Origin: Candidatus Woesearchaeota archaeon
Lineage (GTDB): Archaea; Nanobdellota; Nanobdellia; Woesearchaeales; GW2011-AR4
Length of the DNA stretch: 64,000 nucleotides
Direction of reading: 5' to 3'
Assembly (NCBI GenBank): GCA_016187495.1
Contig: JACPJP010000012.1
Coordinates: forward strand, 17,031-81,030
Positions 5,932 through 27,587 of this stretch are shown here, one piece after another (position 1 is the first letter of the stretch; every line of letters begins with the position of its first letter). Position numbers and translations under genes: made by a program. Below the pieces are notes generated by a model. It saw only the letters and a list, made by a program, of their open reading frames with translations, had not been told where the DNA came from and did no database searches.

Positions 5932-5975
5932 TATAAAGCTTTAAATATGCTTATTTCTTAAAGAAAGTTAGGAAA

Positions 5976-12851: not shown

Positions 12852-13606
12852 CTGCAAAAGAACTTTTTTTATTTGACATTTTTTCTTATTCTTGCATGAA
12901 TTGCTTGAGATCATTAGATTATATTAAAAAATTAGACAATAAATATAAGAGATATGGGTTAAAAACAGTTTTAATACATCCTTCTGAATGGGATTTTGAG
13001 AAAGACAGCAATAATATAATCAGAGCAGCAAAAAAATATAGGATAAGGATGCCTATACTCCTCGATAAAAACAAAAAAATTATAAAAAACCTGAAAATAA
13101 ATTTCTGGCCGACTCAGATATTAATTAAGAACAAAAAAACTGTATACAAGCACATTGGAGAAGGGGATTACAAAGCATTGGAAAATAGTATAATCGAGGC
13201 ATTAAAAATCAAAACCAAGAAGATATTTAATAAAGAGCCGAAATACACAAAATTCCCAACAGTCTATGCAGGCAAGAGAAAAAAGGATAAGCTCTCAGAA
13301 CTAAAAGGCAAATTAAAGTGTGGTATCATATACAAAAAAGGGGCTTGGAAGCAGAATAACGAGTCCTTAATTGGAAAAGGCTTGTTGGTAATAAAAACGA
13401 AAGGGAAGGTAGTAAGTATGGTGGCAAGCTCAATTAAGAAAAAACCAGTAAAAATCAATATAATGTTAAATAATAAAACCAGTAAGAATATGATTATTAA
13501 TGAGCCTCAGTTATATGATATCATGAGATTAAAAACCGATAAAACAAACATACTAAATTTAAAAACAAAAAGTGCCATATCGATCTACTCTTTTGCATTC
13601 CAATGA
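12848..13606 (+). CDS. thioredoxin-fold (redoxin/TlpA-like) protein with Lys-rich C-terminal tail
   Basis: 'SYSCMNC' CxxC motif in the thioredoxin-fold position. Likely start is ATG at 12848; the long ORF from 12758 would overlap bioY. Translationally coupled to ecfA (ATGA at 13603). Confidence 0.55.
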   Translation: MTAKELFLFDIFSYSCMNCLRSLDYIKKLDNKYKRYGLKTVLIHPSEWDFEKDSNNIIRAAKKYRIRMPILLDKNKKIIKNLKINFWPTQILIKNKKTVYKHIGEGDYKALENSIIEALKIKTKKIFNKEPKYTKFPTVYAGKRKKDKLSELKGKLKCGIIYKKGAWKQNNESLIGKGLLVIKTKGKVVSMVASSIKKKPVKINIMLNNKTSKNMIINEPQLYDIMRLKTDKTNILNLKTKSAISIYSFAFQ

Positions 13607-14301
13607 TACAAATAAAAAACCTTGATTTTAAGTACGAAGATGAGCTTATTCTCAAAAATATAAATCTAGAGCTAAAAGATGGCTGCTATACTGCTATAAT
13701 TGGGGCAAACGGCTCAGGGAAAACAACGCTTGCGAAGCACCTTAATGCATTGCTTATGCCAACAAAAGGGTCTGTAACCATTGATGAGATTGATACGAAA
13801 AAGGACCAGATTAGCGTAAGAAAAAAAGTTGGTTTTGTGTTCCAGAATCCTGAAGATCAGTTGGTATATTCGATTGTCGAGGAGGACATTGCATTTGGGC
13901 TGGAAAATCTTGGGATGAGAACAGAAGAAATGAAGACTAAGGTCAATAGTACAATTAAAGGGTTAGACATCGAATACCTTGCAAAGAAGAATGTAAACAT
14001 ACTCTCTGCTGGGCAGAAACAGCTAACTGCTTTGGCTGGAATCCTTGCAATGAGCCCGAAATACATCGTCTTTGACGAACCAACCACGTTATTGGACAAC
14101 AAAAACAAGAAAAATATAATGGATGTAGTAAACACGTTAAACAAGGAAAATAAAATTGGAATTATATTGGTGACTAATCTCCTAAATGATATAAAATATG
14201 CCAAAAATGTCATTGTAATCTGCAATGGAAGAATAATATTCAACGATAAAAAATCAAAATTGAATAACAAAATACTGAAAAAGGCTGGTTTGGATGCTTA
14301 A
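13603..14301 (+). CDS. ecfA: ECF transporter ATPase component (EcfA-like ABC ATPase)
   Basis: Walker A 'GANGSGKTT', ABC signature 'LSAGQKQ', Walker B 'IVFDEPT'; a single ATPase gene only. Confidence 0.85.
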   Translation: MIQIKNLDFKYEDELILKNINLELKDGCYTAIIGANGSGKTTLAKHLNALLMPTKGSVTIDEIDTKKDQISVRKKVGFVFQNPEDQLVYSIVEEDIAFGLENLGMRTEEMKTKVNSTIKGLDIEYLAKKNVNILSAGQKQLTALAGILAMSPKYIVFDEPTTLLDNKNKKNIMDVVNTLNKENKIGIILVTNLLNDIKYAKNVIVICNGRIIFNDKKSKLNNKILKKAGLDA

Positions 14302-15019
14302 GAAGCTGACTTTTGGGCAATATGCGCACAAAGATTCCATAACGCACAAATTAGACCCAAGAATAAAGATTCTTGCCGTTATTTTGCTGAGCGCAACGGC
14401 ATTTTTACTGGAAACTTACTATAAGTTTGCTATATTCTCATTATTTGTTTTTTTATTAATAATGCTGTCAAAAATAAATTTCTCTTCGTTGATAAGGAAC
14501 TTAAGGCCTTTCTTTTTTATTTTTGCATTTATACTAATGATGTATATTTTGTTCTCTAGAAATGAGCTTGACAAAGGCATACAGGCGATATGGAAATTTG
14601 TTTTGTTAATAATAATAGCCTCGATACTTACATTTACAACTACAATAACTAATTTAGTAACAGGAATAGAAAAGTTATCAGCTCCATTAAAATTAATAAA
14701 AATTAATTCTAGGACAATTGCACTGTTAATAGCTTTGACAATAAGGTTCGTCCCAGCATTATTCCTGTATGCCGAGAGAATAAAAGATGCAAGGCTTGCA
14801 AGATTAGGAAGCTTAAAGAGTCCAAAGCACGTTAAATTATTATTTTTGCCATTGCTTGACAGGATATTCAAAAGCGCATCAACACTAAGCGATGCAATGC
14901 TTGCAAGGAACTACACAGAAAAAAGAATTTCTTATTTCAGTGCCATTGGATTAAAAAATTATGACTATATTTCCTTTACTGTACTGTTGGCGTTTATATT
15001 CTTAGTTCTATTGATGTAG
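14294..15019 (+). CDS. ecfT: ECF transporter transmembrane component (EcfT/CbiQ family)
   Basis: 241 aa, ~5 TM helices; overlaps the ecfA stop; position after BioY and EcfA. Confidence 0.8.
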   Translation: MLKKLTFGQYAHKDSITHKLDPRIKILAVILLSATAFLLETYYKFAIFSLFVFLLIMLSKINFSSLIRNLRPFFFIFAFILMMYILFSRNELDKGIQAIWKFVLLIIIASILTFTTTITNLVTGIEKLSAPLKLIKINSRTIALLIALTIRFVPALFLYAERIKDARLARLGSLKSPKHVKLLFLPLLDRIFKSASTLSDAMLARNYTEKRISYFSAIGLKNYDYISFTVLLAFIFLVLLM

Positions 15020-15066
15020 AAATGAGTTTTTGTATTGGATACCTGTTATATTCTTCCTTAATGAGT

Positions 15067-15300
15067 TTACTTACTCCCTGTTGGAGTCTTCTGCCCGAAC
15101 AAAATTCCAGCTAAAACATTCAAAGCCCATGCCTGCCATACATTTATGCTATGAATACTGCCAAACACAAAGTTCCATAAAATCTTTACTGGAAATGCCA
15201 ATATCAAGCCGACAATGCCGCTTATTAATACAACCAAGGCTATAGTATAACCCATCTCTAGCATCCTTTTCAAAAAAGGCACATCATCTAAAAATCCCAT
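15067..15300 (-). CDS. small predicted two-TM membrane protein (77 aa)
   Basis: Two clear hydrophobic helices; it is the more plausible of two mutually exclusive ORFs in this 300-bp gap. Confidence 0.3.
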   Translation of the reverse strand: MGFLDDVPFLKRMLEMGYTIALVVLISGIVGLILAFPVKILWNFVFGSIHSINVWQAWALNVLAGILFGQKTPTGSK

Positions 15301-15321
15301 GTTAATCAGGAAGAATATAGC

Positions 15322-16032
15322 ATGTTGTTTTTAAAGATTTTGCATTTCAATAACTTTATATATAAAATACTAATGAATTGTATTATGAAACAGAAACTCA
15401 ATTACAGTGCCATAAAGAAGCGCTTTAGGGTTGCTATTTTTGGTTCTGCGCGCATAAAAAGAAATGATGCGAGATACAAGCTCATCTACACACTAGCAAA
15501 GATGCTGGCTAAGGAAGGCATCGATATAGTTACTGGCGGGGGTCCTGGACTGATGGATGCTGCCTCTCGCGGTCATCATGCAGGAAGGCACAAAAAAAAT
15601 CATGCTTACACTTTAGGCCTTACAATACACCTCCCAAAAGAGCAAAAGGAAAGCTACCATCTTGACTTGAAAAAAGATTTCCACAAGTTCTCAAACAGGC
15701 TGGATAATTTTATCCACCTCTCAAATGTTGTTATTGTAGCACCTGGCGGCGTAGGCACCACTTTGGAGCTTATGTATGTCTGGCAGCTTGTGCAGGTAAA
15801 GCATTCCTGCGAAATACCGATAATACTATTCGGGGATGTGTGGGGAGGTTTTGTAAAGTGGATAAAAGGCGGACCCTTAAAAAACGAATTTTTGGAGGAA
15901 GATGACCTTGAGCTGTTATACCATGCAAGAACCTGCACTCAGGCAATGAAGATAATAAATCTTGCATACGAAGAATACAAAAAAGGCAGAAAGAATATAT
16001 GTCTAAACATTGATAAATACAAAGTCAAATGA
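15322..16032 (+). CDS. LOG-family Rossmann-fold protein (cytokinin riboside 5'-monophosphate phosphoribohydrolase / nucleotide N-glycosidase family)
   Basis: 'GGGPGLMDAASRG' and 'PGGVGTTLEL' LOG signature motifs. The true start may be the internal ATG at 15373 or 15385. Confidence 0.75.
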   Translation: MLFLKILHFNNFIYKILMNCIMKQKLNYSAIKKRFRVAIFGSARIKRNDARYKLIYTLAKMLAKEGIDIVTGGGPGLMDAASRGHHAGRHKKNHAYTLGLTIHLPKEQKESYHLDLKKDFHKFSNRLDNFIHLSNVVIVAPGGVGTTLELMYVWQLVQVKHSCEIPIILFGDVWGGFVKWIKGGPLKNEFLEEDDLELLYHARTCTQAMKIINLAYEEYKKGRKNICLNIDKYKVK

Positions 16033-16048
16033 AAAATAATTACAATCC

Positions 16049-16771
16049 CTAAATAACAAATATATCTGCTTCCACTATCTTCTTAATGCTCCCGTCATTT
16101 AATTTCAATATAAGATTGCATTCTTCGTCAACATCAACAGCTTTTCCAGTATAATTCCCGCTAAGCGTCTTTGCTTTTGTCATCTTCCCCAAGGTATGCG
16201 AATATTCTTTCCATATATCAACTATTTTTTTATAATTTTTTTTATTATAATAATCATATAATCTATTGAATTCGTTTATTATTGTTTTTGCTATTTTTTC
16301 TATGTCGTAGTTACTATTGGACTCTATCATTATTGACGTTGAGTTTCTCATAATGGACCTTGGAAATTTCTTCTGATTTACATTTAGCCCTATTCCAACT
16401 AGTGCGTAATTTACATTTGTGCATACATTTTCAGTCAATATTCCACATACTTTTTTATGATTAATTAAGATGTCATTCGGCCATTTTACTTTTGCGTCCA
16501 AACCAGCAATCTTGCGAATAGCTTTTGCAACTGACACTGCAGCAATAAAAGTAAGATACTTTGCTTTATCCAAACCCTTTTCCTTCAAGATTATAGTCAT
16601 ATACAATCCTCCTGGGCTAGAACTCCATTTACGCCCAAATCTTCCCCTACCTTTTTCTTGTTTCTTAGCAACTACAACAAGGTTTGCTTTTCGTTCTTTT
16701 GCAAATTCCCTAGCCTTGTCATTAGTAGAGCTAAGAACATCAAAATTATAAAAAGAAAAGTCAGGTTTCAT
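16049..16771 (-). CDS. birA: biotin--[acetyl-CoA-carboxylase] ligase BirA (no N-terminal HTH)
   Basis: 240 aa; 'GRGRFGRKWSSSPGG' biotin-binding loop motif typical of BirA/BPL catalytic domains. Confidence 0.85.
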   Translation of the reverse strand: MKPDFSFYNFDVLSSTNDKAREFAKERKANLVVVAKKQEKGRGRFGRKWSSSPGGLYMTIILKEKGLDKAKYLTFIAAVSVAKAIRKIAGLDAKVKWPNDILINHKKVCGILTENVCTNVNYALVGIGLNVNQKKFPRSIMRNSTSIMIESNSNYDIEKIAKTIINEFNRLYDYYNKKNYKKIVDIWKEYSHTLGKMTKAKTLSGNYTGKAVDVDEECNLILKLNDGSIKKIVEADIFVI

Positions 16772-18656
16772 TCTCCATTAATTCCTGTCTTCCGGACAGG
16801 ACCCAAGGGTTTGCTTTATTGTTGCCGTTCTTCTTTTCCATGTATTTAGCAACTGCCGTGCTCACTATAATGACTTTCTTTTCGTTCGTAAGCTCTTGTT
16901 TTTTATGCTCGTAATATTTCTTTACCTCATCCAGTATGTTATTCTTTTCTATAAAGTTAGTAGTGACTCTTCCCCTGTAGAAGTTCTTGTTGTGCAAAAC
17001 AGCTAAATGAAAAGGTATTGTGGTTTTTACTCCGCCAATAATGTATTCGTGCAGTGCTCTCATCATCCTCACTATAGCTTCCTGCCTGTTGCTGCCATGG
17101 CATATTAGTAGTGATAATAATGAGTCATAATCTGGCAAGACTTTATAGCCCTGGTGGCATATGCTGTTTATTCTTATTCCAGGCCCTCCTGGCGGCAAGT
17201 AGCTAGTTATTGTTCCTATGGAAGGGGCAAAGTTATTACTTGGGTCTTCTGCATTTATCCTGCATTCAATTGCCCATCCATCCACTTTGATGTCTTCTTG
17301 CTTAAACGCAAGCTTTGCCCCTGATGCCAGATTTATCTGCTCCTTAACCAGGTCAACACCTGTAACCATCTCAGTAACTCCATGCTCTACCTGTATTCTC
17401 GTATTCATTTCAATGAAATAGAAATTCTTGCTCTTGTCCAAAAGAAATTCGACAGTTCCAGCGCCCTCATATTTTGCAGCCGATACAGCTTTTACCGCAG
17501 CTTCCCCCATCTTTTCCCTCAACTCTTCGTTTAAAGCGGGGCTTGGGCTTTCCTCGACAAGCTTCTGGTGCTTCCTCTGTATGCTGCAGTCTCTTTCCCC
17601 AAGATGGACAACATTTTTGTATTGATCCGCTAATATTTGAAACTCTATATGCCTGGGCTCCTCAACATATTTCTCCATAAATAGCCTTTTATCATTAAAA
17701 GACAGAAATGCTTCTGCCTGTGCGCCTTCATATGCCTTTTCCAGTTCATCAATATCCCTTACGATCCTCATTCCCTTACCCCCACCGCCTGCAGCAGCTT
17801 TCAATATAACCGGAAATCCTATCTTTCTCGCAAACTTAAGTGCCTCTTTTCTGTTCTTCAGGGGCTTTGCAGTTCCCTCTAGTATAGGGACACCTGCCTT
17901 TTTTACAGTCTTTTTTGCTTTTATCTTGTCCCCTAAAAGCCCTATTGTCATGGAAGACGGCCCTATGAACTTGATTTTATTTTTCTCGCATAGCTTTGCA
18001 AATTTCGGGTTTTCCGCAAGAAATCCGTAACCGGGATGTATTCCATCAGCTTTTATCTTTTTTGCAATATTAATGATTTTCTTGATATCAAGGTAGCTTG
18101 CGCTAGGACCTATACAATAAGCCTTGTTGGCAAACTTAACTGCAAGCGTATCCTTATCCTGCCTTGAATAAACCAGGGCAGTTTCTATGCCTAACTCACG
18201 GCATGCTCTAATTACCCTTAAAGCTATTTCCCCCCTATTGGCTATCAAAACCTTGTTAAGCTTCTTTTCTTTTGATAGGACAGTATATTCTTTCTCATTA
18301 AAACTGCCTAACCCTTTTGCGAGCATGCCAATAAAAGATTGTGAGGATCTTGCCTTCACTATTTTCCTTAGCTCAGTTTCATGAATGCTCGGTATTTTCT
18401 TCATAAGATTGAAGGTTATCACATCTCCAAGCTTTGCTAAATTGTCTTTCTTAAAACCTCTTTTTTCAATCTGTATAACATTGCTCTTAATCAACCTGTC
18501 TATTTCCCCATAAACCAGCGGAGCTGCTTTTTTCATCTCGTTAAATGCCTTCTTTAAGGCTTTGTATGAATATTCCGCTGGAATTAAGCCTTTGTTTAGT
18601 ACCGAGACTATGCCATTCTTAATCCTTTTTGAGATGCTGTTTTTTCTCTTTCCCAT
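16761..18656 (-). CDS. biotin carboxylase (AccC/PccA-type ATP-grasp) with ~125-aa N-terminal extension of unknown function
   Basis: The core from 'KVLIANRGEIALRVIRACRELGIE' onward is canonical biotin carboxylase (ATP-grasp, BC C-terminal domain). The upstream 125 aa (Lys-rich, no match) may be real or due to a late internal start at Met 18326. Confidence 0.85.
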   Translation of the reverse strand: MGKRKNSISKRIKNGIVSVLNKGLIPAEYSYKALKKAFNEMKKAAPLVYGEIDRLIKSNVIQIEKRGFKKDNLAKLGDVITFNLMKKIPSIHETELRKIVKARSSQSFIGMLAKGLGSFNEKEYTVLSKEKKLNKVLIANRGEIALRVIRACRELGIETALVYSRQDKDTLAVKFANKAYCIGPSASYLDIKKIINIAKKIKADGIHPGYGFLAENPKFAKLCEKNKIKFIGPSSMTIGLLGDKIKAKKTVKKAGVPILEGTAKPLKNRKEALKFARKIGFPVILKAAAGGGGKGMRIVRDIDELEKAYEGAQAEAFLSFNDKRLFMEKYVEEPRHIEFQILADQYKNVVHLGERDCSIQRKHQKLVEESPSPALNEELREKMGEAAVKAVSAAKYEGAGTVEFLLDKSKNFYFIEMNTRIQVEHGVTEMVTGVDLVKEQINLASGAKLAFKQEDIKVDGWAIECRINAEDPSNNFAPSIGTITSYLPPGGPGIRINSICHQGYKVLPDYDSLLSLLICHGSNRQEAIVRMMRALHEYIIGGVKTTIPFHLAVLHNKNFYRGRVTTNFIEKNNILDEVKKYYEHKKQELTNEKKVIIVSTAVAKYMEKKNGNNKANPWVLSGRQELMENET

Positions 18657-18731
18657 AACTCTAATGTATTGATTTTCGGTTTATAAAAGTTACTGAAATC
18701 CTAAAAACCCGCACTAACTTAGCAGCACAAA

Positions 18732-18748
18732 AAAGAAAGGTATATAAA
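18732..18748 (+). promoter_or_regulatory. putative archaeal BRE/TATA promoter
   Basis: 'aaagaaagg' + 'tatataaa' ~47 nt upstream of the ATG at 18795. Confidence 0.35.
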
Positions 18749-18788
18749 CTAGAATATAGGCATAAGATATACACCCATAAAAAAGAGT

Positions 18789-19589
18789 GTGAAAATGAAG
18801 AAAGAAACAAATATAAAAAAGGTTAAACAAAATAAATCTAACTATATTTTTCTCATTTTGCTTATTTTAGCAGCTATCATAGTTGTAACTAACAATGCCT
18901 TTTTTTCAGGAACTGGGGCTGCAGTGCGTGGGGAAGGAACAAAAAAATCTAGCTTACCTGATTTGATAGCTTCAGGAGCAACTTTGCAAAATGTACAAAA
19001 AAAATTAATAGAGGGTAAACTACTTTTTCATATACAAGAAGGTGTGGGTGTTGCAAATATTGGCGGTGCAAGATCAAAAGCATCTGTTCTTCGTGCTGGT
19101 ATAATAGGTAATTCACTACAGAACGTTAGAGCAACGGTGTTTTATGTAGATTCGACTGGAAGACTTGTTACAAGCGCTACAACACAATACTTCACCTTAA
19201 CTAATAACGGTGCATATATTGATATTCCTGTGGATCCTCTAATGCCATATGATAAATATAAATGGGGCGACAATTACGCTGTCCTTTTCTTAGACGTTCC
19301 TATAAACATGCCGCCTACTAATGGAACAGTTGTTGAAACAAAATATGCTCTTTTCAGTGACGCTGATGTAACTAAACTTGTAACTGAATCAGATGAAATT
19401 AATAACTATATGGAAAAAGGTTATATTTTCCGCTGTGCTTTTCAGGATGACGATCTTTCTGTTTATCCTTATGCCCCTACTTGTTGCTTGCACAGAGTTG
19501 ATCCTTCATCACCTAGGTATATCATGTATGGAACATATTACTGCGAAGATTTTCCTCCTTATAATCCATTATACTTACCTGCTGGATGA
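18789..19589 (+). CDS. hypothetical exported/membrane-anchored protein with Cys-rich C-terminus
   Basis: 266 aa; N-terminal TM/signal anchor (IFLILLILAAIIVVT); C-terminal CC...C...C cluster; probable ATG start at 18795. Confidence 0.5.
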   Translation: MKMKKETNIKKVKQNKSNYIFLILLILAAIIVVTNNAFFSGTGAAVRGEGTKKSSLPDLIASGATLQNVQKKLIEGKLLFHIQEGVGVANIGGARSKASVLRAGIIGNSLQNVRATVFYVDSTGRLVTSATTQYFTLTNNGAYIDIPVDPLMPYDKYKWGDNYAVLFLDVPINMPPTNGTVVETKYALFSDADVTKLVTESDEINNYMEKGYIFRCAFQDDDLSVYPYAPTCCLHRVDPSSPRYIMYGTYYCEDFPPYNPLYLPAG

Positions 19590-19673
19590 TTTACTTCCAT
19601 ATATTTTCTCAACTGAAAATTCCCATTTACCTTCTAACGAAAGTTTTTTAAAAGCCCAGACATTAGTTTAGAC

Positions 19674-20168
19674 ATGGATTTGATAGACCAATTTAAGGAC
19701 CCCAATGGAGAAATAAGCAGGGAAAACATCAAGCAGATAATACCTTATGACGATGATTTTTTGTTTATTGATCGGGTTTTAAAGCTGGATAAAAAAAATA
19801 TCGTTGCTGTAAAAGAAGTCAAGGCTGATGAGCCGTATTTTAAGGGACATTTCAAGGGTTTCCCAATAATGCCAGGAGCCTTAATAGTAGAGGGCTTGGG
19901 CCAGGCAGCTACATTGCTTGTGAGGTACAACATACATAACCATGAAGAAAAAGATATACTTGCGTATAAGATAAGGGGCGCTAAATTTTTCAGGCCCACT
20001 TTCCCAGGCCAGACCTTGAGGTTTGAAGCCAGACTTTTTTTCATGTTCAAAAAAATAGCATTTGTAAATGGCAGTGTTTTCAGAAATGACAAGCTCACTG
20101 CAAAGGTAAATATGGTCTTGGCCATAGTTGATAAAAAATCGTTTAGGGAAAAGTACACAAAAAAATAA
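19674..20168 (+). CDS. FabZ-like beta-hydroxyacyl dehydratase (hotdog fold)
   Basis: 'FLFIDRV' and 'HFKGFPIMPGALIVEGLGQAA' match the FabZ/FabA catalytic His and hotdog motifs. Confidence 0.78.
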   Translation: MDLIDQFKDPNGEISRENIKQIIPYDDDFLFIDRVLKLDKKNIVAVKEVKADEPYFKGHFKGFPIMPGALIVEGLGQAATLLVRYNIHNHEEKDILAYKIRGAKFFRPTFPGQTLRFEARLFFMFKKIAFVNGSVFRNDKLTAKVNMVLAIVDKKSFREKYTKK

Positions 20169-20180
20169 TGGAGAGGAAGA

Positions 20181-21238
20181 ATGTACATCAAAGGCGCTGG
20201 AATGACGAAGTTCGGGATACGTGCAGAAACAACACATGAGCTGTGTTATGAGGCTATTATGGAAGCTCTGGAAGATGCAGATATGCCCTTATCAGAAATA
20301 GATGAAATAATAATCTCAAAAGGGGGTTCAAGAAATGATGGGGAGAGGCAAAAGCTCTTTCCGGGTATGTTGAGCAGCATGCTCCAGGACCAGGATATAC
20401 CTATCATAAGGGTCATGGCTGCTTGCAGCGGGGGAGGAGCGGCAATATGGGATGCGGTGAATTCCAAAGATGGAAATATCCTTGTAGTTGGTGTTGATAA
20501 GCTCTCAACTGAGCCAACCAGCCTCATGACGGACGATTTGATGATGGCTTCAGAAAGGATTCACGAGCAGACGGAAGGCCTAAACTTTCCGGCCCAGAAC
20601 GCGCTCATTGCGCAGCAATATATGCTCAAGTATGGGGTATCAACTGATGACCTCGCATTAGTCGCACTAAAAAACCATGAGAATGCCTTCCTTAACCCCA
20701 AAGCAAGATTTTATGGAAAGAAAGTTACATTGGATATGATACCGCCATATTAAGCAATGAAAAAAGCGACATAGAGATAATAGGCTCCTCATTATACACT
20801 GACAGGCTCTCAGTATTTGAATCAAAAGATATGACGTCATGGGCAGCCACAAGACTGGCAGCTCAGTCCGCTTACCAGCAAGCTGGAATAACCCAGAAAG
20901 ATATTGATTTTGTTGAGCTGCATGATGCTTTTACGTCCGTTGAATTGATGGCTTACGAGGATCTGGGTTTCGCTGAAAGAGGGGAAGGCAAGAAGCTGAT
21001 AAAGAAAGGCATAACAAAAATGAATGGAAAACTCCCGGTAAACGCCTCAGGAGGATTAAAAGCAAAGGGGCATCCCATCAGTGCTACAGGGGTGAGCCAG
21101 ATATATGAGATAGTGAGGCAAATGAGAAAGCAAGCTGGCAAAAGGCAACTTGATAATATTGGAATAGGCTTAGCCCACAATGTAGGGGGAGTAGGCAGCA
21201 CTGTTACGGTACATATAATAAAGCATGTTGGTGGTTAA
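20181..21238 (+). pseudogene. thiolase (acetyl-CoA C-acetyltransferase family) paralog 1, interrupted by an out-of-frame ~67-nt deletion
   Basis: The N-terminal part (20181-20753, active-site 'AACSGGG') ends 'LDMIPPY*'. The C-terminal part continues in another frame (…TAILSNEKSDIEIIG…, ORF 20831-21238). About 22 codons present in paralog 2 (RKSPVVASPLRLFDCSIPCNGA) are missing. The break lies exactly at the end of the 141-bp tract shared with paralog 2. Confidence 0.6.
20601..20741 (+). repeat. 141-bp perfect direct repeat, copy 1 (inside thiolase paralog 1)
   Basis: Identical to 23144-23284 by direct comparison, whereas flanking coding sequence of the two paralogs diverges at synonymous sites. 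Confidence 0.85.
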
Positions 21239-21240
21239 TA

Positions 21241-22692
21241 ATGATAATAAGATGGGTTTGTGAAAAAGACAACAAAAAATGGATGTATCCCATCCAAAAA
21301 TGCATTTACTGCAAAGGACCCGTAAAGAAACAGGTAAGCAGAAAAGCAAGAGTTATAGGTATAACGAAAGTAAACATACCTTCCCCAATGCATCCGATTA
21401 TACCCTACAATGTTATTCTGCTTGAGGACGAGCATGGCAACAAGATGCCAAAAAAGACTATGAAGGACTATAAGATAGGGGATGAATACAAAATTGAAAA
21501 GGCGAAATCTGACAGTGGCGTTATTGCAACAAAAATAAAGTATGACTTGTACGAGGCTTTAAAATCATCCTTGGAGTTACTAAACTCTTTTGATGTAATG
21601 GAAAATGATAAAGTGCTGATAAAGCCGAGCATAATAGAGCCAGCTTACAGCTATTCAGCAGTAAATACTAACCCAAAAATACTTGATGCCCTAATAACTT
21701 TCCTGAAAGAAAAGAATGTAAATGATATAATTGTAGCTGAGCAGGCAATGGTTGGCAATGATACCTTAGACTCTGCAAAAAAATCTGGAATGTTAGAAGT
21801 ATGTGAAAAGCATAATGTGGGTTTCGTTGACCTTAAAAAGGCAGAGTATGCAGAAAAAGAAGCTGAAGGGTTTAAATTTGAGGTTGCCAAATATTTCTTC
21901 GAAAGAAAAGTTATAAATATTCCTGTTATGAAAACCAACTCCCAGATTGGTATTTCTGGAGCAGTTGAAAATATGGTAAGATGCGCGCATAAGGATACGC
22001 AAAAAAATATGTTTAAGCACGATATAGAAAAGACCTTGCCCAAGCTGATTAAAACCCTGCCTCATTTCATAACCATAGGGGATGCTACAATAGGCATGCA
22101 TGGCCAAGGCCCGACCTCTCTGGGAGAGCCTGCATTTTTGAATATGCTTTTTGCGAGCAAGGATCCTGTTGCTTTAGATGCAGTTTTCGTGGAAATGGGA
22201 ATGATGGAGATGCCTCAATACCTAAAAGAATGCGGTTCTTTAGGATTAGGGAACTGCGACTCAAAAACAATCGAAGTAGTAGGAGACGAATTGGAGGCTA
22301 TAAAGTTCTCTCTCAAGCCTGCTAAAAAAAATGAAAGCGCGCACCCAAAAATAAAGCTTATCGATGGTAAAGCAGATCCTTATATTTTTAATTCGGCAAT
22401 AAAATCAACAGCTAAGCTTATTGGATTATCAGGACAGGAGATTAACCTTGCCATAGGCTCGCAACTGACAAAAGATATGATAGCAGATAAAAACCGCTTG
22501 GTTGCATATGGAAATGATGCGATTGAAAAAATAAAATCGTTAGGAATAACTCCAATTGCAGAAATACCTGAAGGTATAGACGATCTTGAAAAGATTATAT
22601 TGCTAAAAAGTATCCTGGAGAACCCTGAAAAGGAAGGCATTACTATTGCAGATAAAATAAAATCAAAATTTTTAAGTTGGGTGCAAAAATAA
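21241..22692 (+). CDS. fusion protein: N-terminal DUF35-like Zn-ribbon/OB-fold domain (thiolase/HMGCS scaffold family) + large C-terminal domain of uncertain family (possibly DUF362-like)
   Basis: N-terminus 'CEKDNKKWMYPIQKCIYCKG' is a rubredoxin-like ribbon followed by an OB-like segment as in archaeal DUF35 proteins. The remaining ~380 aa are conserved-looking but unassigned. The gene sits between two thiolase paralogs. Confidence 0.65.
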   Translation: MIIRWVCEKDNKKWMYPIQKCIYCKGPVKKQVSRKARVIGITKVNIPSPMHPIIPYNVILLEDEHGNKMPKKTMKDYKIGDEYKIEKAKSDSGVIATKIKYDLYEALKSSLELLNSFDVMENDKVLIKPSIIEPAYSYSAVNTNPKILDALITFLKEKNVNDIIVAEQAMVGNDTLDSAKKSGMLEVCEKHNVGFVDLKKAEYAEKEAEGFKFEVAKYFFERKVINIPVMKTNSQIGISGAVENMVRCAHKDTQKNMFKHDIEKTLPKLIKTLPHFITIGDATIGMHGQGPTSLGEPAFLNMLFASKDPVALDAVFVEMGMMEMPQYLKECGSLGLGNCDSKTIEVVGDELEAIKFSLKPAKKNESAHPKIKLIDGKADPYIFNSAIKSTAKLIGLSGQEINLAIGSQLTKDMIADKNRLVAYGNDAIEKIKSLGITPIAEIPEGIDDLEKIILLKSILENPEKEGITIADKIKSKFLSWVQK

Positions 22693-23143
22693 AAAAATAG
22701 ATTCTAAGATGGCCATTTACATAAAAGGTGCAGGAATGACGAAATTTGATGTTGACCAGAGAAATTCTTACGAGCGCATATATGAATGTGTAAACGAGGC
22801 TCTTGATTCAGGGAATGTGAGTATGAAAGATATAGAGGCCGTTTTCGTCTCAAACTGCGAGCCTGAAACCAATGGCGAAAGGCAAAGGCATACTGGCCCA
22901 ATGATAAGCAGCATGTTCCAGAAAAAAATGCCCATAATAACAGTCCCTGCCGGATGCGGTGGTGGAGGAACAGCATTATGGAATGCTGCAGAATTCCAAA
23001 AAAAAAATAATATGAAAAACATACTTGTTATTGGGTTTGAGAAACTTGTTGCAAATTTATCAGAAAACATAACTGATGAGATGTTCATGGGCGGTGAGCG
23101 TATTTATGAGCAAGCAGAAGGTGTCATTTTTCCTGCCCAAAAT

Positions 23144-23284
23144 GCGCTCATTGCGCAGCAATATATGCTCAAGTATGGGGTATCAACTGATGACCTCGCA
23201 TTAGTCGCACTAAAAAACCATGAGAATGCCTTCCTTAACCCCAAAGCAAGATTTTATGGAAAGAAAGTTACATTGGATATGATA
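23144..23284 (+). repeat. 141-bp perfect direct repeat, copy 2 (inside thiolase paralog 2)
   Basis: Identical to 20601-20741. Confidence 0.85.
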
Positions 23285-23298
23285 ATTGGATATGATAA
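23273..23298 (+). repeat. 13-bp tandem duplication (ttggatatgataa x2) that frameshifts thiolase paralog 2
   Basis: Read directly from the sequence; the first unit is the last 13 nt of the 141-bp shared tract. Confidence 0.85.
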
Positions 23299-24127
23299 GA
23301 AAATCTCCTGTAGTTGCTTCTCCGTTAAGGCTGTTTGACTGTAGCATACCATGCAACGGCGCGGCTGCTGTTATAATAGGCAGGGGCAAAACGGAGGTTG
23401 AGCTTGCTGGCTCTGGGTTAAGCACGAGCAAGTTGGCGAGCTTTGAAAGGGAAGACATGACCTCTTGGGACTCAACAATAAATGCTGCAAAAATAGCATA
23501 CAAAGAAGCAAATATAACTCCAAATGATATAGACATAGCAGAGGTTCATGACGCATTTACCCCTGTTGAGCTTATTTCTTATGAAGATTTGGGATTCTGC
23601 AAAAAAGGCGAGGGTCCTTACCTTATCAGGCAAGGGGCAACAAAAATTAATGGCAAGCTTCCTGTAAATACCTCTGGAGGATTGAAAGCAAAGGGTCATC
23701 CTATCAGCGCTACCGGAGTAAGCCAGATATATGAGCTTTTTCTGCAGCTGACAGGAAATGCAAAAGGCAGGCAGGTGGATAATGCCAATTATGGCTTGGC
23801 GCACAATACTGGTGGCGCAGGCAGCATGACCAGCGTGCATATACTAAAGAAAGCTATGTGATGGTTAGAGTATGTCTAAAAATCGCTTCGCGGGTTAGCC
23901 CACGATAATTGGAATGATGTTCTTGTTTGACATTTTCATTGTTTGACTGACCATAAAAACCAACCTTACGATGCTCGTCCATTTTGACTTTCATTTGTTT
24001 ATTTAATCATATTTCCTTTTTCATTAAAAATTCATATGGATAAAACCCTATTATTATTAATTTTTATTGAATAAATACTATGTTGCAATTAATGCTAACC
24101 TTTGTTTTTTAGACACGCCCGTGATGG

Positions 24128-25531
24128 CTATTTTGGATTCAATATATGTATAGCCTTTCCCATTGTCGCTTCCGCAGCTTCCATTAAGCTTTCGCTCAAT
24201 GTAGGATGAGGGTGTATTGTCAAAGCTAAATCATCCAAAGTAGCATTCATCTTTATTGCCAAAGCTGCTTCGCTTATAAGATCAGAAGCTTCGCTTCCGA
24301 CAATTTGAACACCAAGAAGTTTATTGCTTTTTTCGTCTGCAATTACCTTGACAAATCCGTCTGTCGCATTTCTTGTCATTGCCCTGCTTGACGCCCTAAA
24401 AGGGAACTTTCCAGTTTTTATCTTAATCCCATTATCTTTAGCTTCTTTCTCATCCATTCCGACTGTAGCAATCTCTAGATCTGTAAATATTACTGCAGGC
24501 ACGACAATATTTTCATATGCGCCTTTATTTCCTGCTATTGCCTCTGCAACAAATTTTCCTTGGCTTGAAGCCTTGTGCGCTAGCATTGGTCCTGTAGAAA
24601 CGTCCCCAATAGCATAAATATTCCCATCAGTTGTCCTCAAAGTTTGGTCTACTTTTATAAACCCCTTATCATTTAACTTTACTTTTGTATTTTCAAGCCC
24701 TATACTATTTGTCGCTGGGATTCTTCCAACAGCTACAAGCAAGGTATCGGCATTAATTGCCAGATTGCCTTTGTCTTTTGATTCTATTGTTACTTTTCCA
24801 TTCTCAAACTTGCTGGCTTTTGAATTGAGGAATATATTAATACCTAGCTTATCCAAATTTTTTTGCAGCACATTAACTATTTCATTATCAAAACCAGGAA
24901 GAATCTGGCTTTCCATCTCTATAACATTGACTTTGCTTCCGAGTTTTGCATACACAATGCCCAATTCCATGCCTATATAACCTCCACCTATAACTGCAAG
25001 ATTTTTTGGAATTTGGTTAAGGTATAATGCTTCTGTTGAACTTATTATCCTCTTTCCATCAAACTTAAATCCTGGCAATTCAACAGGCTTTGAGCCGACT
25101 GCAATTATTGCCTTTTCGAATTCAATATGATTAATATTCTTGCCATCTGCAACTTTTAATTTATTCGAGCCTTCAAAATATGCTTCTCCCCTAACAACCC
25201 TTATTTTGTTCTGTTTGCATAATAATTCAATGCCGTTATTTAACTTGGATATTATCCCATCCTTCCACTCTTGCATTTTATTGAAGTTCATTGTAACCTT
25301 GCCAACACTAATGCCCATATTTTCTGATTTTTTTATCTTGTCAAGAAATTCAGCTGCGTAGATCATTGCCTTTGATGGAATGCATCCGTAATTAAGGCAT
25401 ATCCCACCTAATTTATCCTTGTCAACTAAAACTACATTTTTCCCGAGCTGCGCCAGCCTTATTGCTGCTACATAGCCTCCTGGCCCTGCGCCTATTACAG
25501 CTACTTCCGTGCTTAATATGTTCGAATCCAT
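24128..25531 (-). CDS. lpdA: dihydrolipoyl dehydrogenase (E3, pyridine nucleotide-disulfide oxidoreductase)
   Basis: FAD motif 'VIGAGPGGY', redox-active 'CLNYGCIPSK' disulfide, NAD motif and C-terminal dimerisation His-Pro; likely start 'MDSNILSTEVAVIGAGPGG' at 25531. The six-frame ORF extends to 25594. Confidence 0.9.
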   Translation of the reverse strand: MDSNILSTEVAVIGAGPGGYVAAIRLAQLGKNVVLVDKDKLGGICLNYGCIPSKAMIYAAEFLDKIKKSENMGISVGKVTMNFNKMQEWKDGIISKLNNGIELLCKQNKIRVVRGEAYFEGSNKLKVADGKNINHIEFEKAIIAVGSKPVELPGFKFDGKRIISSTEALYLNQIPKNLAVIGGGYIGMELGIVYAKLGSKVNVIEMESQILPGFDNEIVNVLQKNLDKLGINIFLNSKASKFENGKVTIESKDKGNLAINADTLLVAVGRIPATNSIGLENTKVKLNDKGFIKVDQTLRTTDGNIYAIGDVSTGPMLAHKASSQGKFVAEAIAGNKGAYENIVVPAVIFTDLEIATVGMDEKEAKDNGIKIKTGKFPFRASSRAMTRNATDGFVKVIADEKSNKLLGVQIVGSEASDLISEAALAIKMNATLDDLALTIHPHPTLSESLMEAAEATMGKAIHILNPK

Positions 25532-25628
25532 GATATATAGATGAGGTATACCATTAATAAATCTAACGCTTATTTGCAATAATTCTAGCTTCATGAATTG
25601 AAACCATTTGATTTTATTATTATGCTCC

Positions 25629-25760
25629 CGGCAATTTTACTGCTCGCTTAATAATCATAATAAAACTATTGTTATGATTAGGCGAGGCAAAATTTATTGG
25701 CAGGAAAAATTTTGCCGAGCAGTAAAATTCGGCTGAGCGTAGCGAAGCCAAATTGAAATT
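25629..25760 (+). ncRNA. conserved structured intergenic element, copy B (nested hairpins)
   Basis: Outer 14-bp stem aattttactgctcg (25633-25646) / cgagcagtaaaatt (25716-25729) encloses an inner hairpin ggcaaaattt/aaaattttgcc (25687-25715). The core 25681-25738 is ~85% identical to 11701-11752. Confidence 0.4.
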
Positions 25761-25873
25761 TAATAAAAAATCAATTTCAAAAGGCAGAATAAATTTAATT
25801 AATTTCCCCTTACTAAATAGCCCTTTAAAAAGACAAGATTTAAAAAGTTCTTGCTCATTCTTGATAGTGTAAA

Positions 25874-26851
25874 ATGTCTATTGCGGTGATTATAAAAGAG
25901 CCAGAATCGTGGAAGCCTGACAGGCCTGCCTCTAGCGGTGCGATTGCATTTCATAATGCGGTTATTAACGCTTCTTGGCTGCATGATTGTGTAGATAAGT
26001 TGACAGAATTTGCTGCTCCGAGAATCAAGGAAAATGACATCGTAGTTGATTTCGGGGCAGGAACTGGAACGTCTTCTGCCAGGATACTAAAAAGATTTGA
26101 TAACAGGATAAGGTTGTGGCTTGTAGACAATTCTCCAGCATGGCTCGGTAAAGCTTACGAGTACTTACATTCTAGGCAAAATGTAAAATTCTTTGTCTTG
26201 GAAAAGAAAAATGATCATTACTCGACTTTATCTGAAACCGTTGGCAAAGAGTCCGTTAACCAAGTATTATCTGCCAATACCATCCATTTGATTCCAAACC
26301 TCAAGGAAACTTTTAGGGGTATTTTTGATTCCTTAAAGCCGAATGGCTCTTTTATTTTCAACAGTGGGAATATTGAGAGAGAAGGTAAGCCGAAAGGTGC
26401 TTTGATGCTGGATTCCACTGTTTATAGAGTACATGACATTGCAATAGACTTAATAAAAAAAATGCCAAAATTCAAAGAATATAGGGAAGGCCTTGACAAG
26501 CGGATAAAAGAATTTTTGCCCCAAAGAAAATTTATTTTTCCTTACCCTAAGGACATTAAAGATTATTTAGGGGCTGTTAAGGATGCTGGATTCCGGCAAA
26601 TAAAGGAATATTATTCATGCTTCAGAGTAAAATATTCTGATTATCTTGACTTTTTGAAGGTAAAAAGGTTGCAGGCAGGAATGCTGCCAGAAGTAGGCGG
26701 TTTAGAGCCAAATAAGAAGGAAATTCAGGATAGGGATGAATTAATAACCCTAGCTTCGTTGCAGCTTTTTGACGAGCTTAGGAAAAATAATCCCTTGGCA
26801 GACGATAAAGCCTGGCAATGTGAATGGGCATATATTGCTGGAGTTAAATAA
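25874..26851 (+). CDS. class I SAM-dependent methyltransferase family protein
   Basis: 'IVVDFGAGTGTSS' glycine-rich SAM-binding motif I followed by an acidic motif II (LWLVDNS). Confidence 0.55.
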   Translation: MSIAVIIKEPESWKPDRPASSGAIAFHNAVINASWLHDCVDKLTEFAAPRIKENDIVVDFGAGTGTSSARILKRFDNRIRLWLVDNSPAWLGKAYEYLHSRQNVKFFVLEKKNDHYSTLSETVGKESVNQVLSANTIHLIPNLKETFRGIFDSLKPNGSFIFNSGNIEREGKPKGALMLDSTVYRVHDIAIDLIKKMPKFKEYREGLDKRIKEFLPQRKFIFPYPKDIKDYLGAVKDAGFRQIKEYYSCFRVKYSDYLDFLKVKRLQAGMLPEVGGLEPNKKEIQDRDELITLASLQLFDELRKNNPLADDKAWQCEWAYIAGVK

Positions 26852-26852
26852 T

Positions 26853-27587
26853 ATGCTGAAGGGAAAAGTAGCGTTAGTTACCGGAGCTTCTAGAGGCATT
26901 GGAAGCTCCATAGCTTTTGAGATGGCAAAGGAGGGTGCAGATATTATTGTTAATTATGCCAGCAGCAGCAAAAATGCCGAAGAAGTGGTCGATAAAATAA
27001 AAAAAATGGGGAATAAGGCTATATCTATAAAAGCCGATGTTTCTAATTATAATGAAGTGGCTAAAATGTTTGAACTCGTTAAATCAGAATTTAAAAAAAT
27101 TGACATACTGGTAAATAATGCAGGCATTGTCAGGGACAGGACATTAAGGAATATGTCGCAGGAAGAATGGAACAATGTCCTAAATACCAATTTAAGCAGT
27201 GTATTTAATGTTACCAAGCAAGCCCTCCAGTTAATGGGAGACGGTGGCAGGATAATTAACATATCCTCTATTGTAGGGCAGTATGGCAATTTTGGCCAGA
27301 CCAACTACGCGGCTGCAAAGGCAGGAATAATAGGGCTTACTAAATCACTAGCAAAAGAGCTTGGCAAGAGGAAGATAACGGTAAATGCTATTGCTCCTGG
27401 ATTCATAAAAACGGATATAATAAAAGATATGCCTTTTTTCAAAAGGAAGATTATCAGGTATATGATACCATTGAAGGAAGAAGGCAATCCAGAGGATGTG
27501 GCAAATGCTGTTGTTTTCCTTGCATCAGAAAAATCACGCTATATCACTGGTTCTGTAATTAATGTTGATGGCGGCTTAGCTTTTTGA
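26853..27587 (+). CDS. FabG-like short-chain dehydrogenase/reductase (3-oxoacyl reductase family)
   Basis: 'GKVALVTGASRGIGSSIA' TGxxxGxG, 'NNAG', catalytic 'YAAAKAG' YxxxK; classical SDR of ~245 aa from the ATG at 26853. The long ORF from 26769 overlaps the upstream gene. Confidence 0.85.
   Translation: MLKGKVALVTGASRGIGSSIAFEMAKEGADIIVNYASSSKNAEEVVDKIKKMGNKAISIKADVSNYNEVAKMFELVKSEFKKIDILVNNAGIVRDRTLRNMSQEEWNNVLNTNLSSVFNVTKQALQLMGDGGRIINISSIVGQYGNFGQTNYAAAKAGIIGLTKSLAKELGKRKITVNAIAPGFIKTDIIKDMPFFKRKIIRYMIPLKEEGNPEDVANAVVFLASEKSRYITGSVINVDGGLAF

What the first reader, a model, noticed from the sequence alone, without database searches (positions are those of the whole stretch)
20181..23861. 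Two thiolase paralogs both broken exactly at the 3' edge of a 141-bp perfectly identical tract
Paralog 1 (20181-21238) and paralog 2 (22709-23861) diverge at synonymous sites. The exception is a 141-bp stretch (20601-20741 = 23144-23284) that is identical base for base. Immediately after this tract, paralog 1 lacks ~22 codons (including the conserved PLRLxDCS region) with a frame change, and paralog 2 carries a 13-bp tandem duplication that shifts frame. That both lesions coincide with the repeat boundary is unlikely by chance. It suggests either recent gene conversion or illegitimate recombination between the paralogs that pseudogenised both, or a collapsed or mis-polished repeat in the assembly.
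Basis: seen in the sequence. Interest (0 to 1): 0.7.

Follow-up and report, generated by a model that had tools for sequence, protein, structure and literature searches.

The report
Assembly artefact at thiolase paralog repeat
The two "broken" thiolase genes are almost certainly intact in the organism: a real 191-base stretch shared by both genes confused the short-read assembler, which joined its pieces wrongly and created a false 70-base deletion in one copy and a false 13-base duplication in the other.

Summary
Bases 20601-20741 equal 23144-23284 exactly (141 nt) in paralogs that are otherwise about 60% identical. Paralog 1 lacks 70 nt right after the tract, and paralog 2 carries a perfect 13-nt tandem duplication there.

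The lesions are not biological. Independent k=31 Logan assemblies of raw reads match the window perfectly on both sides (648 and 2024 nt). They carry the missing 70 nt and restore an intact 375-aa paralog 1. They also show that the true shared tract is 191 nt.

141 is MEGAHIT's default largest k. The window is an NCBI Woesearchaeota MAG that appears to belong to a groundwater project assembled with MEGAHIT and then scaffolded with IDBA-UD. Both joins can be read as a left contig ending exactly at tract base 141 plus a wrongly trimmed right contig. Five other MAGs from that project show lesions at the edges of the same paralog repeat, one of them again with an exactly 141-nt tract. About 35 gene copies from other projects show none.

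Direct read evidence is missing only for the paralog-2 duplication.

What is real is recurrent gene conversion between the two tandem thiolase paralogs, with exact runs of 26-750 nt, mostly 78 nt or longer, across the clade. That is a known kind of process. Interest is low.

The parts
19674..20168 (+). FabZ/FabA-like dehydratase gene directly upstream of paralog 1. It served as the anchor for finding independent read assemblies.
   Evidence: Pfam FabA, E=1e-20. The exact protein is on 12 Logan contigs from several SRR121134xx and SRR12113390 runs.
20181..21238 (+). Thiolase paralog 1 as assembled (1058 nt). The true gene is 1128 nt and 375 aa; 70 nt are missing after position 20741.
   Evidence: Thiolase_N and Thiolase_C_1 hits on the two fragments. 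Logan contigs L014 and L001 supply the missing bases, and the repaired gene is in frame. The orthologs are 375 aa.
20601..20741 (+). Copy 1 of the identical tract: the first 141 nt of the real 191-nt shared tract R.
   Evidence: Exact identity to 23144-23284. L014 continues through R bases 142-191 with no break.
20741..20742 (+). False join in paralog 1. Missing here are R bases 142-191 (50 nt) plus the first 20 paralog-1-specific bases (TTCCATTGATGGGGCGGCTG).
   Evidence: L001 bases 1-50 precede CCGCCATATT, and L001 is then identical to window 20742-22765.
21241..22692 (+). DUF362-domain gene (483 aa) between the two thiolase genes. It has a Cys-rich N-terminal extension.
   Evidence: Pfam DUF362, E=2e-34. 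The gene order is conserved in relatives.
22709..23861 (+). Thiolase paralog 2 as assembled (1153 nt). Removing the 13 spurious bases gives 1140 nt and 379 aa.
   Evidence: Repaired translation. Orthologs at 91-92% identity are 379 aa.
23144..23285 (+). Copy 2 of the tract: R bases 1-142.
23286..23298 (+). Spurious 13-nt tandem duplicate, TTGGATATGATAA. It is equivalent to a left piece ending at R base 141 followed by a right piece starting at R base 129.
   Evidence: Tandem Repeats Finder gives a perfect 2.1-copy array at 23272-23298, the only perfect repeat with a period of 13 nt or more in the window. The duplicate is absent from the same tract in L014 and from all relatives.
23299..23347 (+). 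The rest of the shared tract in paralog 2: R bases 143-191.
   Evidence: The last 30 nt equal the first 30 nt of Logan contig L001, which then continues into paralog-1-specific sequence.

Best explanation
The organism carries two intact tandem thiolase genes, of 375 and 379 aa, flanking a DUF362 gene. A recent gene-conversion event made a central 191-nt segment (R) of the two genes identical.

R is longer than MEGAHIT's largest default k of 141. In the assembly graph, each left-flank contig therefore ended with the first 141-mer of R, and each right-flank contig began with the last 141-mer. The 191-nt repeat unitig itself would fall below MEGAHIT's 200-nt minimum contig length.

The IDBA-UD scaffolder then joined left and right contigs from paired-end distance estimates rather than from their true 91-nt overlap. 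Trimming 78 nt instead of 91 produced the 13-nt duplication in paralog 2. Trimming 161 nt instead of 91 produced the 70-nt deletion in paralog 1.

**Shown:** the tract and the lesions as written; paralog 1 intact in raw-read assemblies; R is 191 nt; the same signature recurs in the same project; conversion is present in relatives.

**Inferred:** the exact scaffolder behaviour, that the paralog-2 duplication has the same origin, and that the window's MAG belongs to this project.
For: 1. **Paralog 1 is intact in raw-read assemblies.** Logan contig L014 (SRR12113390) is 100% identical to the window for 648 nt upstream and through the paralog-1 N-terminus. It then runs through all 191 nt of R with no deletion or duplication. 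Logan contig L001 (SRR12113428) begins 30 nt before the end of R, carries the 20 paralog-1-specific bases missing from the window, and is then identical to window 20742-22765. Together they give an in-frame 1128-nt gene.
2. **R is a two-context repeat in the reads.** Logan contigs L012 and L013 stop exactly 30 nt (k-1) into R, and L001 starts exactly 30 nt before its end. These are the branch points expected for a 191-nt repeat with two contexts.
3. **141 is the assembler's k.** He et al. 2021 assembled with MEGAHIT v1.2.9 at default settings and then used IDBA-UD scaffolding (PMC7906910). ENA contigs of relatives are named k141_. The 141-nt largest k is from my own knowledge of MEGAHIT. Scaffold L021 from the same project has a 141-nt terminal direct repeat.
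4. **The signature recurs in NC_groundwater MAGs.** L039 has an exactly 141-nt tract with deletions (63 and about 107 nt) in both copies at one edge. L019 has both copies deleted (129 and 123 nt) at the 3' edge of a 100-nt tract. L034, L040 and L041 have deletions of 53 to about 101 nt; those in L040 and L041 lie at a tract edge, while the one in L034 lies about 100 nt past its longest exact run. By my count from the and 40 listings, 9 of 12 complete copies in that project are lesioned, against none of about 35 copies from other projects.
5. **The window appears to belong to that project.** Its locus tag HYW19 falls alphabetically between HYU50 and HYX08, which belong to NC_groundwater MAGs.
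6. **The repaired genes look functional.** They equal their orthologs in length (1128 and 1140 nt), and dN/dS is 0.04-0.11 both upstream and downstream of the junction.
7. **This error class is documented.** Chen et al. 2020 describe IDBA-UD local assembly errors and duplicated sequence at scaffold joins (PMC7111523).
8. **Gene conversion is supported.** Within-genome identity of paralog 1 to paralog 2 is 1.00 in R against 0.58 (5' part) and 0.62 (3' part). Window paralog 1 is only 0.86 identical to its ortholog within R.
Against: - I found no independent read-level contig that crosses the paralog-2 junction (look-ups and searches were empty). For the 13-nt duplication the artefact reading therefore rests on analogy, junction position and relatives.
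- The run from which the MAG was assembled is not identified. The link of the window and of the SRR runs to PRJNA640378 is inferred and was not found in the supplement text held.
- The behaviour I attribute to the IDBA-UD scaffolder, trimming by estimated distance without checking the overlap, comes from my memory of its source code. I did not test it.
- In L019 the shared tract is 100 nt rather than 141, so a simple k=141 node model does not fit every case.
Confidence: 0.9

Rival explanations
1. Both lesions are real. Illegitimate recombination or abortive gene conversion between the paralogs pseudogenised both genes in this population.
For: Both lesions sit at the same edge of the identical tract in the deposited sequence. 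Gene conversion does occur between these paralogs.
Against: - Paralog 1 is intact in two independent raw-read assemblies that match the window perfectly on both sides.
- L001 is not cut at the position where a deletion allele would create a branch in the k=31 graph.
- The tract length equals the assembler's k.
- The same pattern appears in five other MAGs from one pipeline and in none from other pipelines.
- There is no sign of relaxed selection and no other lesion.
Confidence: 0.03
2. Mixed case. The paralog-1 deletion is an artefact, but the 13-nt tandem duplication in paralog 2 is a real slippage mutation, fixed or polymorphic in the sampled population.
For: Short tandem duplications are common spontaneous mutations. 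No independent contig across the paralog-2 junction was recovered.
Against: - The junction can be placed exactly at tract base 141, the same position as the demonstrated false join in paralog 1. The chance of a random position in a 1140-nt gene doing so is roughly 14 in 1140.
- The duplication is perfect.
- Both halves of paralog 2 show dN/dS of 0.04-0.11.
- L014 passes through the same 31-mers without a branch.
- All relatives lack the duplication.
Confidence: 0.06
3. The split genes are functional as written, for example through programmed frameshifting or as separately translated N- and C-terminal halves.
For: Each fragment keeps a recognisable thiolase half-domain.
Against: - As written, paralog 1 lacks the conserved SPLRLFDCS segment that is present in every relative.
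- No relative outside the one assembly pipeline has split genes.
- The read assemblies show the unsplit gene.
Confidence: 0.01

Closest known systems
Local assembly and scaffolding errors at repeats in short-read metagenome assemblies (IDBA-UD-type errors described by Chen et al. 2020, Genome Res, PMC7111523)
   Same: Sequence unsupported by reads at a contig join. Duplicated sequence where the flanks really overlap. The error sits at a repeat longer than k and than the read length. The result is truncated or frameshifted genes in deposited MAGs.
   Different: No Ns mark the joins here. Both copies of a two-copy repeat are hit at the same repeat coordinate, which mimics a biological double lesion. 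The specific trimming mechanism is inferred, not shown.
Gene conversion and concerted evolution between tandem or dispersed paralogs in prokaryotes (for example the tufA/tufB genes of Salmonella; from my own knowledge)
   Same: A tract that is identical at synonymous sites inside otherwise diverged paralogs. Paralogs of one genome are closer to each other than to their orthologs within the tract. Tracts recur independently in related lineages.
   Different: Here the conversion is confined mostly to a central segment or the 3' half of the gene, in DPANN archaea, between two thiolase genes separated by a DUF362 gene. No recombination machinery or selective reason has been identified.
Archaeal-type thiolases (acetyl-CoA C-acetyltransferase family; Pfam Thiolase_N and Thiolase_C_1)
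   Same: Domain architecture and a length of about 375-380 aa. Some sources annotate homologues as acetyl-CoA C-acetyltransferase.
   Different: Two paralogs flank a DUF362 fusion gene in a cluster with a FabZ-like dehydratase, biotin carboxylase and a short-chain dehydrogenase. The substrate and the role of each paralog are unknown.

Membership tests
Assembly or scaffolding artefact at a repeat | An independent assembly of the raw reads lacks the lesion | tested here: met
   Paralog 1: Logan contigs L014 and L001 restore the 70 nt and are otherwise 100% identical to the window. Paralog 2: no contig across the junction was recovered.
Assembly or scaffolding artefact at a repeat | The junction geometry is tied to an assembler parameter | tested here: met
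   The tract is exactly 141 nt, and both junctions can be placed at tract base 141. The project used MEGAHIT at default settings plus IDBA-UD scaffolding. Relatives have k141_ contig names. L021 has a 141-nt terminal repeat and L039 a 141-nt tract. That 141 is the default largest k is from my own knowledge.
Assembly or scaffolding artefact at a repeat | Recurs in the same pipeline and is absent in other pipelines | tested here: met
   L019, L034, L039, L040 and L041 (all NC_groundwater MAGs) are lesioned at or close to tract edges. Loci from other projects have no indel of 10 nt or more there.
Assembly or scaffolding artefact at a repeat | No read in the source library spans the junctions | not testable with these tools
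   Raw reads cannot be mapped here. Only Logan contigs built from them are available.
Genuine pseudogene | The lesion is present in the reads or in independent assemblies of the same population | tested here: not met
   Paralog 1 is intact in L014 plus L001. Paralog 2 could not be tested.
Genuine pseudogene | Relaxed selection or accumulation of further lesions | tested here: not met
   dN/dS is 0.04-0.11 on both sides of both junctions against the L002 orthologs, and the repaired lengths are identical to the orthologs. A very recent lesion would look the same, so this is weak evidence on its own.
Gene-conversion tract between paralogs | Identity includes synonymous sites and far exceeds the background divergence of the paralogs | tested here: met
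   191 of 191 nt identical, against 0.58-0.62 identity elsewhere in the genes.
Gene-conversion tract between paralogs | Phylogenetic discordance: within the tract, paralogs of one genome are closer to each other than to their orthologs | tested here: met
   In R, window paralog 1 against window paralog 2 is 1.00. Window paralog 1 against L002 paralog 1 is 0.86. Outside R, orthologs are 0.88-0.90 and paralogs 0.58-0.65.
Gene-conversion tract between paralogs | Both genomic contexts of the tract are supported independently of the questioned assembly | tested here: inconclusive
   The k=31 Logan contigs break exactly at both ends of R, which implies two contexts. Only the paralog-1 contexts were recovered directly. 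The paralog-2 contexts come from the window itself.
Thiolase family (Pfam Thiolase_N / Thiolase_C_1) | Both domains match above the Pfam gathering score in a protein of about 380 aa | tested here: met
   Repaired paralog 2: Thiolase_C_1 160 bits and Thiolase_N 43 bits. The paralog-1 fragments score 55 and 158 bits.
Thiolase family (Pfam Thiolase_N / Thiolase_C_1) | Catalytic Cys and His residues are in place, and acetyl-CoA acetyltransferase activity is present | not tested
   The motifs ACSGGG or AGCGGGG, and GHPISATG, are visible in the translations. No structural or residue-level alignment to a characterised enzyme was made. Activity cannot be tested here.

The most novel reading that the evidence does not exclude
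The recurrent homogenisation of the central segment of the two thiolase paralogs might be maintained by selection rather than being neutral conversion. That segment is roughly ALIAQQYM...SPLRLFDCS, and in some genomes the whole 3' half is homogenised. One possible reason is that both paralogs must present the same surface to a common partner, such as the DUF362 fusion protein encoded between them. The lesions themselves would still be artefacts.
Probability: 0.12. Interest if true: 0.4.

Novelty: not a real feature. Interest (0 to 1): 0.12.

Why it matters
The result has little biological weight. It removes a false report of double pseudogenisation.

Its practical value is as a data-quality warning. 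At least six deposited NCBI Woesearchaeota MAGs that appear to come from one large groundwater study carry false deletions, frameshifts or duplications in a metabolic gene pair. NCBI annotates the pieces in this window as four separate proteins (MBI2523073, MBI2523074, MBI2523076 and MBI2523077). Metabolic reconstructions, pseudogene counts and protein databases inherit these fragments.

The signature should be easy to screen for in other MAGs: an exact repeat whose length equals the assembler's k, with indels at one edge in both copies.

The real biology underneath is frequent gene conversion between tandem thiolase paralogs in DPANN archaea. This is a modest addition to a known phenomenon.

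Tried and rejected
- **Exact-protein look-ups for the paralog-2 side.** I tried the C-terminal part starting at SPLRLFDCS and the downstream lipoamide dehydrogenase. Neither is on record.
- **Exact DNA scans.** A 50-nt piece of the tract was scanned against GTDB species genomes and JGI metagenomes. There were no matches, so this strain is in neither collection.
- **Protein search with the 63-aa tract peptide**. It returned only 3 distant candidates and was uninformative.
- **Protein search with the paralog-2 C-terminal 180 aa**. It found no 100% identical partial protein from read assemblies. It did find more thiolase fragments of 135-228 aa on long Woesearchaeota contigs, some of them the NC_groundwater contigs examined here.
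- **Cluster listings**. The intact 375-aa and 379-aa sequences are not in the collection. Only the four NCBI fragments of this MAG are.
- **Supplement search of He et al. 2021** for the SRR numbers and the locus tag. Nothing was found; the tables are cut in the held copy. The project link therefore rests on locus-tag order and on the relatives.
- **Rfam scan of the window**. It found nothing.
- **Pfam on the N-terminal 123 aa of the DUF362 protein**. There was no hit, so my impression that it resembles a DUF35-like zinc ribbon plus OB fold is unsupported.
- **Programmed frameshift or split-gene readings.** Considered and rejected; see the rival explanations.
Full report
**1. The observation**

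- Window 20601-20741 and 23144-23284 are identical over exactly 141 nt, and mismatches flank the tract on both sides. It is the only exact repeat of 25 nt or more in the 64-kb window.
- The two genes are thiolases (Pfam Thiolase_N and Thiolase_C_1). Outside the tract they are only about 47-75% identical in 60-nt windows, apart from a conserved 3' stretch that reaches 87%. The tract cannot be chance.
- Paralog 2 has a perfect 13-nt tandem duplication, TTGGATATGATAA at 23273-23298. It is the only perfect repeat with a period of 13 nt or more in the window. Removing one copy gives an open 379-aa reading frame.
- Paralog 1 lacks 70 nt after 20741, including the SPLRLFDCS segment, and changes frame.

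**2. Provenance**

The four thiolase fragments are NCBI proteins MBI2523073, MBI2523074, MBI2523076 and MBI2523077. Their locus tags are HYW19_01665, 01670 and 01680; the tag of MBI2523077 was not returned. They lie on a 150,162-nt contig of a Candidatus Woesearchaeota MAG.

The closest genomes in GTDB are NC_groundwater MAGs (accessions JACP...). Two of them carry locus tags HYU50 and HYX08, which bracket HYW19 alphabetically. That data set is from He et al. 2021. It was assembled with MEGAHIT v1.2.9 at default parameters, and the contigs were then scaffolded with the scaffolding function of IDBA-UD (PMC7906910).

I could not find the run numbers or the locus tag in the supplement text held. 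The link to that project is therefore an inference.

From my own knowledge, MEGAHIT's default k list ends at 141 and its default minimum contig length is 200 nt. The k141_ contig names of related ENA assemblies agree with the first point.

**3. Independent assemblies of the raw reads**

Logan contigs are built from single sequencing runs with k=31. Several of them cover this locus.
- **L014** (SRR12113390, 1259 nt) is identical to the window for 648 nt upstream and through the paralog-1 N-terminus. It then reads through the 141-nt tract and continues AGAAAATCTCCTGTAGTTGCTTCTCCGTTAAGGCTGTTTGACTGTAGCAT, with no deletion and no duplication.
- **L001** (SRR12113428, 2074 nt) starts with the last 30 nt of that continuation. 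It continues TTCCATTGATGGGGCGGCTG and is then identical to window 20742-22765 (2024 nt).
- **The two contigs overlap** by k-1 = 30 nt. Together they supply exactly the 70 missing bases and give an in-frame 1128-nt, 375-aa paralog 1.
- **The first 30 nt of L001** equal paralog 2 at 23318-23347. The tract truly shared by the paralogs is therefore 191 nt (R), not 141.
- **L012 and L013** stop exactly 30 nt into R, and L001 starts exactly 30 nt before its end. This is what a k=31 graph does at the borders of a repeat with two contexts.
- **L001 is not cut** at the position where a deletion allele would create a branch. In that sample such an allele is absent or rare.

**4. Geometry of the two joins**

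Because of the 13-nt repeat, the paralog-2 junction can be written as a left piece ending at R base 141 followed by a right piece starting at R base 129. In paralog 1 the left piece ends at R base 141 and the right piece starts 20 nt beyond R. Both left pieces therefore end with exactly the first 141-mer of R. This is what a k=141 graph yields at the entry to a repeat.

The right-hand contigs should begin with the last 141-mer, R bases 51-191, so the true overlap is 91 nt. The observed joins correspond to trimming 78 nt (13 nt duplicated) and 161 nt (70 nt lost).

My recollection of the IDBA source is that a negative estimated distance makes the scaffolder drop that many bases from the next contig without checking the overlap. 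This would produce exactly such errors, but I did not verify it.

Chen et al. [quoted passage not shown] They also report that duplicated sequence occurs at scaffold joins where the flanks really overlap (PMC7111523).

**5. Recurrence in the same project**

A scan of GTDB species genomes with the repaired paralog 2 returned 32 loci. The NC_groundwater MAGs among them show the following.

| Locus | MAG | Shared exact tract | Lesions |
|---|---|---|---|
| L039 | NC_groundwater_560 | exactly 141 nt | 63 nt and about 107 nt deleted, one in each copy, at one edge of the tract; the locus is shown reversed relative to the record |
| L019 | NC_groundwater_302 | 100 nt | 129 nt and 123 nt deleted, one in each copy, at the 3' edge |
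| L041 | NC_groundwater_556 | 81 nt (second copy cut by the contig end) | 74 nt deleted at the tract edge |
| L040 | NC_groundwater_206 | 33 nt (second copy cut by the contig end) | about 101 nt deleted at the tract edge |
| L034 | NC_groundwater_558 | 51 nt | about 53 nt deleted in one copy, about 100 nt past the tract |
| L021 | NC_groundwater_557 | n/a | none; the scaffold has a 141-nt direct repeat at its two ends |

Counting the window, by my count from the and 40 listings 9 of 12 complete thiolase copies in that project are lesioned.

The two-copy loci from other projects are L002-L004, L016, L020, L022, L024-L026, L028-L030 and L032. In these, all copies are full length, and the three that were aligned base by base show no indel of 10 nt or more at this position. 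Many contigs, from several projects, also end inside the thiolase gene. This is expected where a repeat breaks the assembly.

**6. State of the genes**

Close relatives (91-92% protein identity) have the same gene order: FabZ-like gene, thiolase of 375 aa, DUF362 gene of 488 aa, thiolase of 379 aa. Both thiolases are intact.

The repaired window genes have exactly the ortholog lengths, 1128 and 1140 nt. Against the L002 orthologs, dN/dS is 0.04-0.11 both upstream and downstream of each junction. No other lesions are present.

**7. What is real: gene conversion**

- Within R, window paralog 1 is 100% identical to window paralog 2 but only 86% identical to its ortholog in L002. Outside R, orthologs are 88-90% identical and paralogs 58-65%.
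- The relative L002 has its own 85-nt exact run, ending at the same 3' border (...GACTGCAGCAT).
- Across eleven further genomes, within-genome identity in this segment is 0.74-1.00, against 0.58-0.65 in the 5' part. The longest exact runs are 26-750 nt (78 nt or more in eight of the eleven), and in L020 and L022 they cover the whole 3' half.
- This is recurrent gene conversion, or concerted evolution, between tandem paralogs. It is a known kind of process. The longest tracts come from short-read assemblies and need long-read confirmation.

**8. What remains open**

I found no independent contig that crosses the paralog-2 junction (searches gave nothing). That the 13-nt duplication is an artefact rests on five points:
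- Its junction coincides with R base 141, where the paralog-1 join is demonstrably false.
- The duplication is perfect.
- L014 passes through the same sequence without a branch.
- The duplication is absent from all relatives.
- Both halves of the gene are under purifying selection.

I put the probability that it is real at about 6%. The probability that both lesions are real is about 3%.

**9. Verdict**

The double pseudogenisation is not a property of the organism. It is a scaffolding artefact at a real 191-nt gene-conversion tract.

Novelty category: not a real feature. Interest is low. The value of the result lies in the warning about this MAG set and in an easily screened artefact signature.

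Noticed in passing
L019 2950-3049 / 5448-5547; L039 4207-4347 / 6733-6873; L034 ~3027-3042; L040 ~5322-5337; L041 ~5392-5395: Five other deposited NC_groundwater Woesearchaeota MAGs carry deletions or frameshifts of 53-129 nt in the same thiolase pair, at or close to the edges of the tract shared by the paralogs. In L039 the tract is again exactly 141 nt. This points to a systematic pipeline artefact in that public MAG set.
   Followed up: yes
L021 1-141 and 2576-2716: A 2716-nt NC_groundwater scaffold (DUF362 C-terminus, thiolase, DUF362 N-terminus) has an identical 141-nt sequence at both ends. The thiolase/DUF362 unit seems to form a cycle in the k=141 assembly graph of that genome.
   Followed up: partly
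L020 2794-3543 / 5378-6127; L022 2850-3554 / 5425-6129; L018, L025, L029, L032: In other Woesearchaeota genomes the two thiolase paralogs share exact tracts of 149-750 nt, in some cases the whole 3' half, while the 5' parts stay about 60-65% identical. Gene conversion between this pair is recurrent and varies in extent. The long tracts come from short-read assemblies and are unconfirmed.
   Followed up: partly
window 12222-27587: The thiolase pair sits in a cluster with BioY, a biotin-protein ligase, a biotin carboxylase with a roughly 130-aa N-terminal extension, a FabZ-like dehydratase, a lipoamide-dehydrogenase-like flavoprotein, a methyltransferase and a FabG-like short-chain dehydrogenase. 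This looks like a set of genes for fatty-acid-type chain building in a DPANN archaeon, but the function was not examined.
   Followed up: no
window 21241-21610: The DUF362 protein between the thiolases has a Cys-rich N-terminal extension of about 120 aa (CEK...C..C). It reminded me of the DUF35 zinc-ribbon plus OB-fold partners of archaeal thiolases, but Pfam gave no hit even at E=1.
   Followed up: partly
L010 2074-3213; L005 1051-2516: Two MEGAHIT contigs of related species in ENA have single-base lesions. One is an in-frame stop in paralog 2 (L010). The other is a 1-nt deletion that splits the DUF362 gene (L005). Their sister assemblies are intact, so these may be sequencing or strain-consensus errors, or real variants.
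   Followed up: partly
L012 and L015, position 54 of paralog 1 (window about 20234); L013 upstream region: Logan contigs from different runs differ from the window by single SNPs (one in paralog 1, six in the 824 nt upstream in L013). Several closely related strains therefore coexist in these samples. This probably explains why the read-level contigs are short.
   Followed up: no
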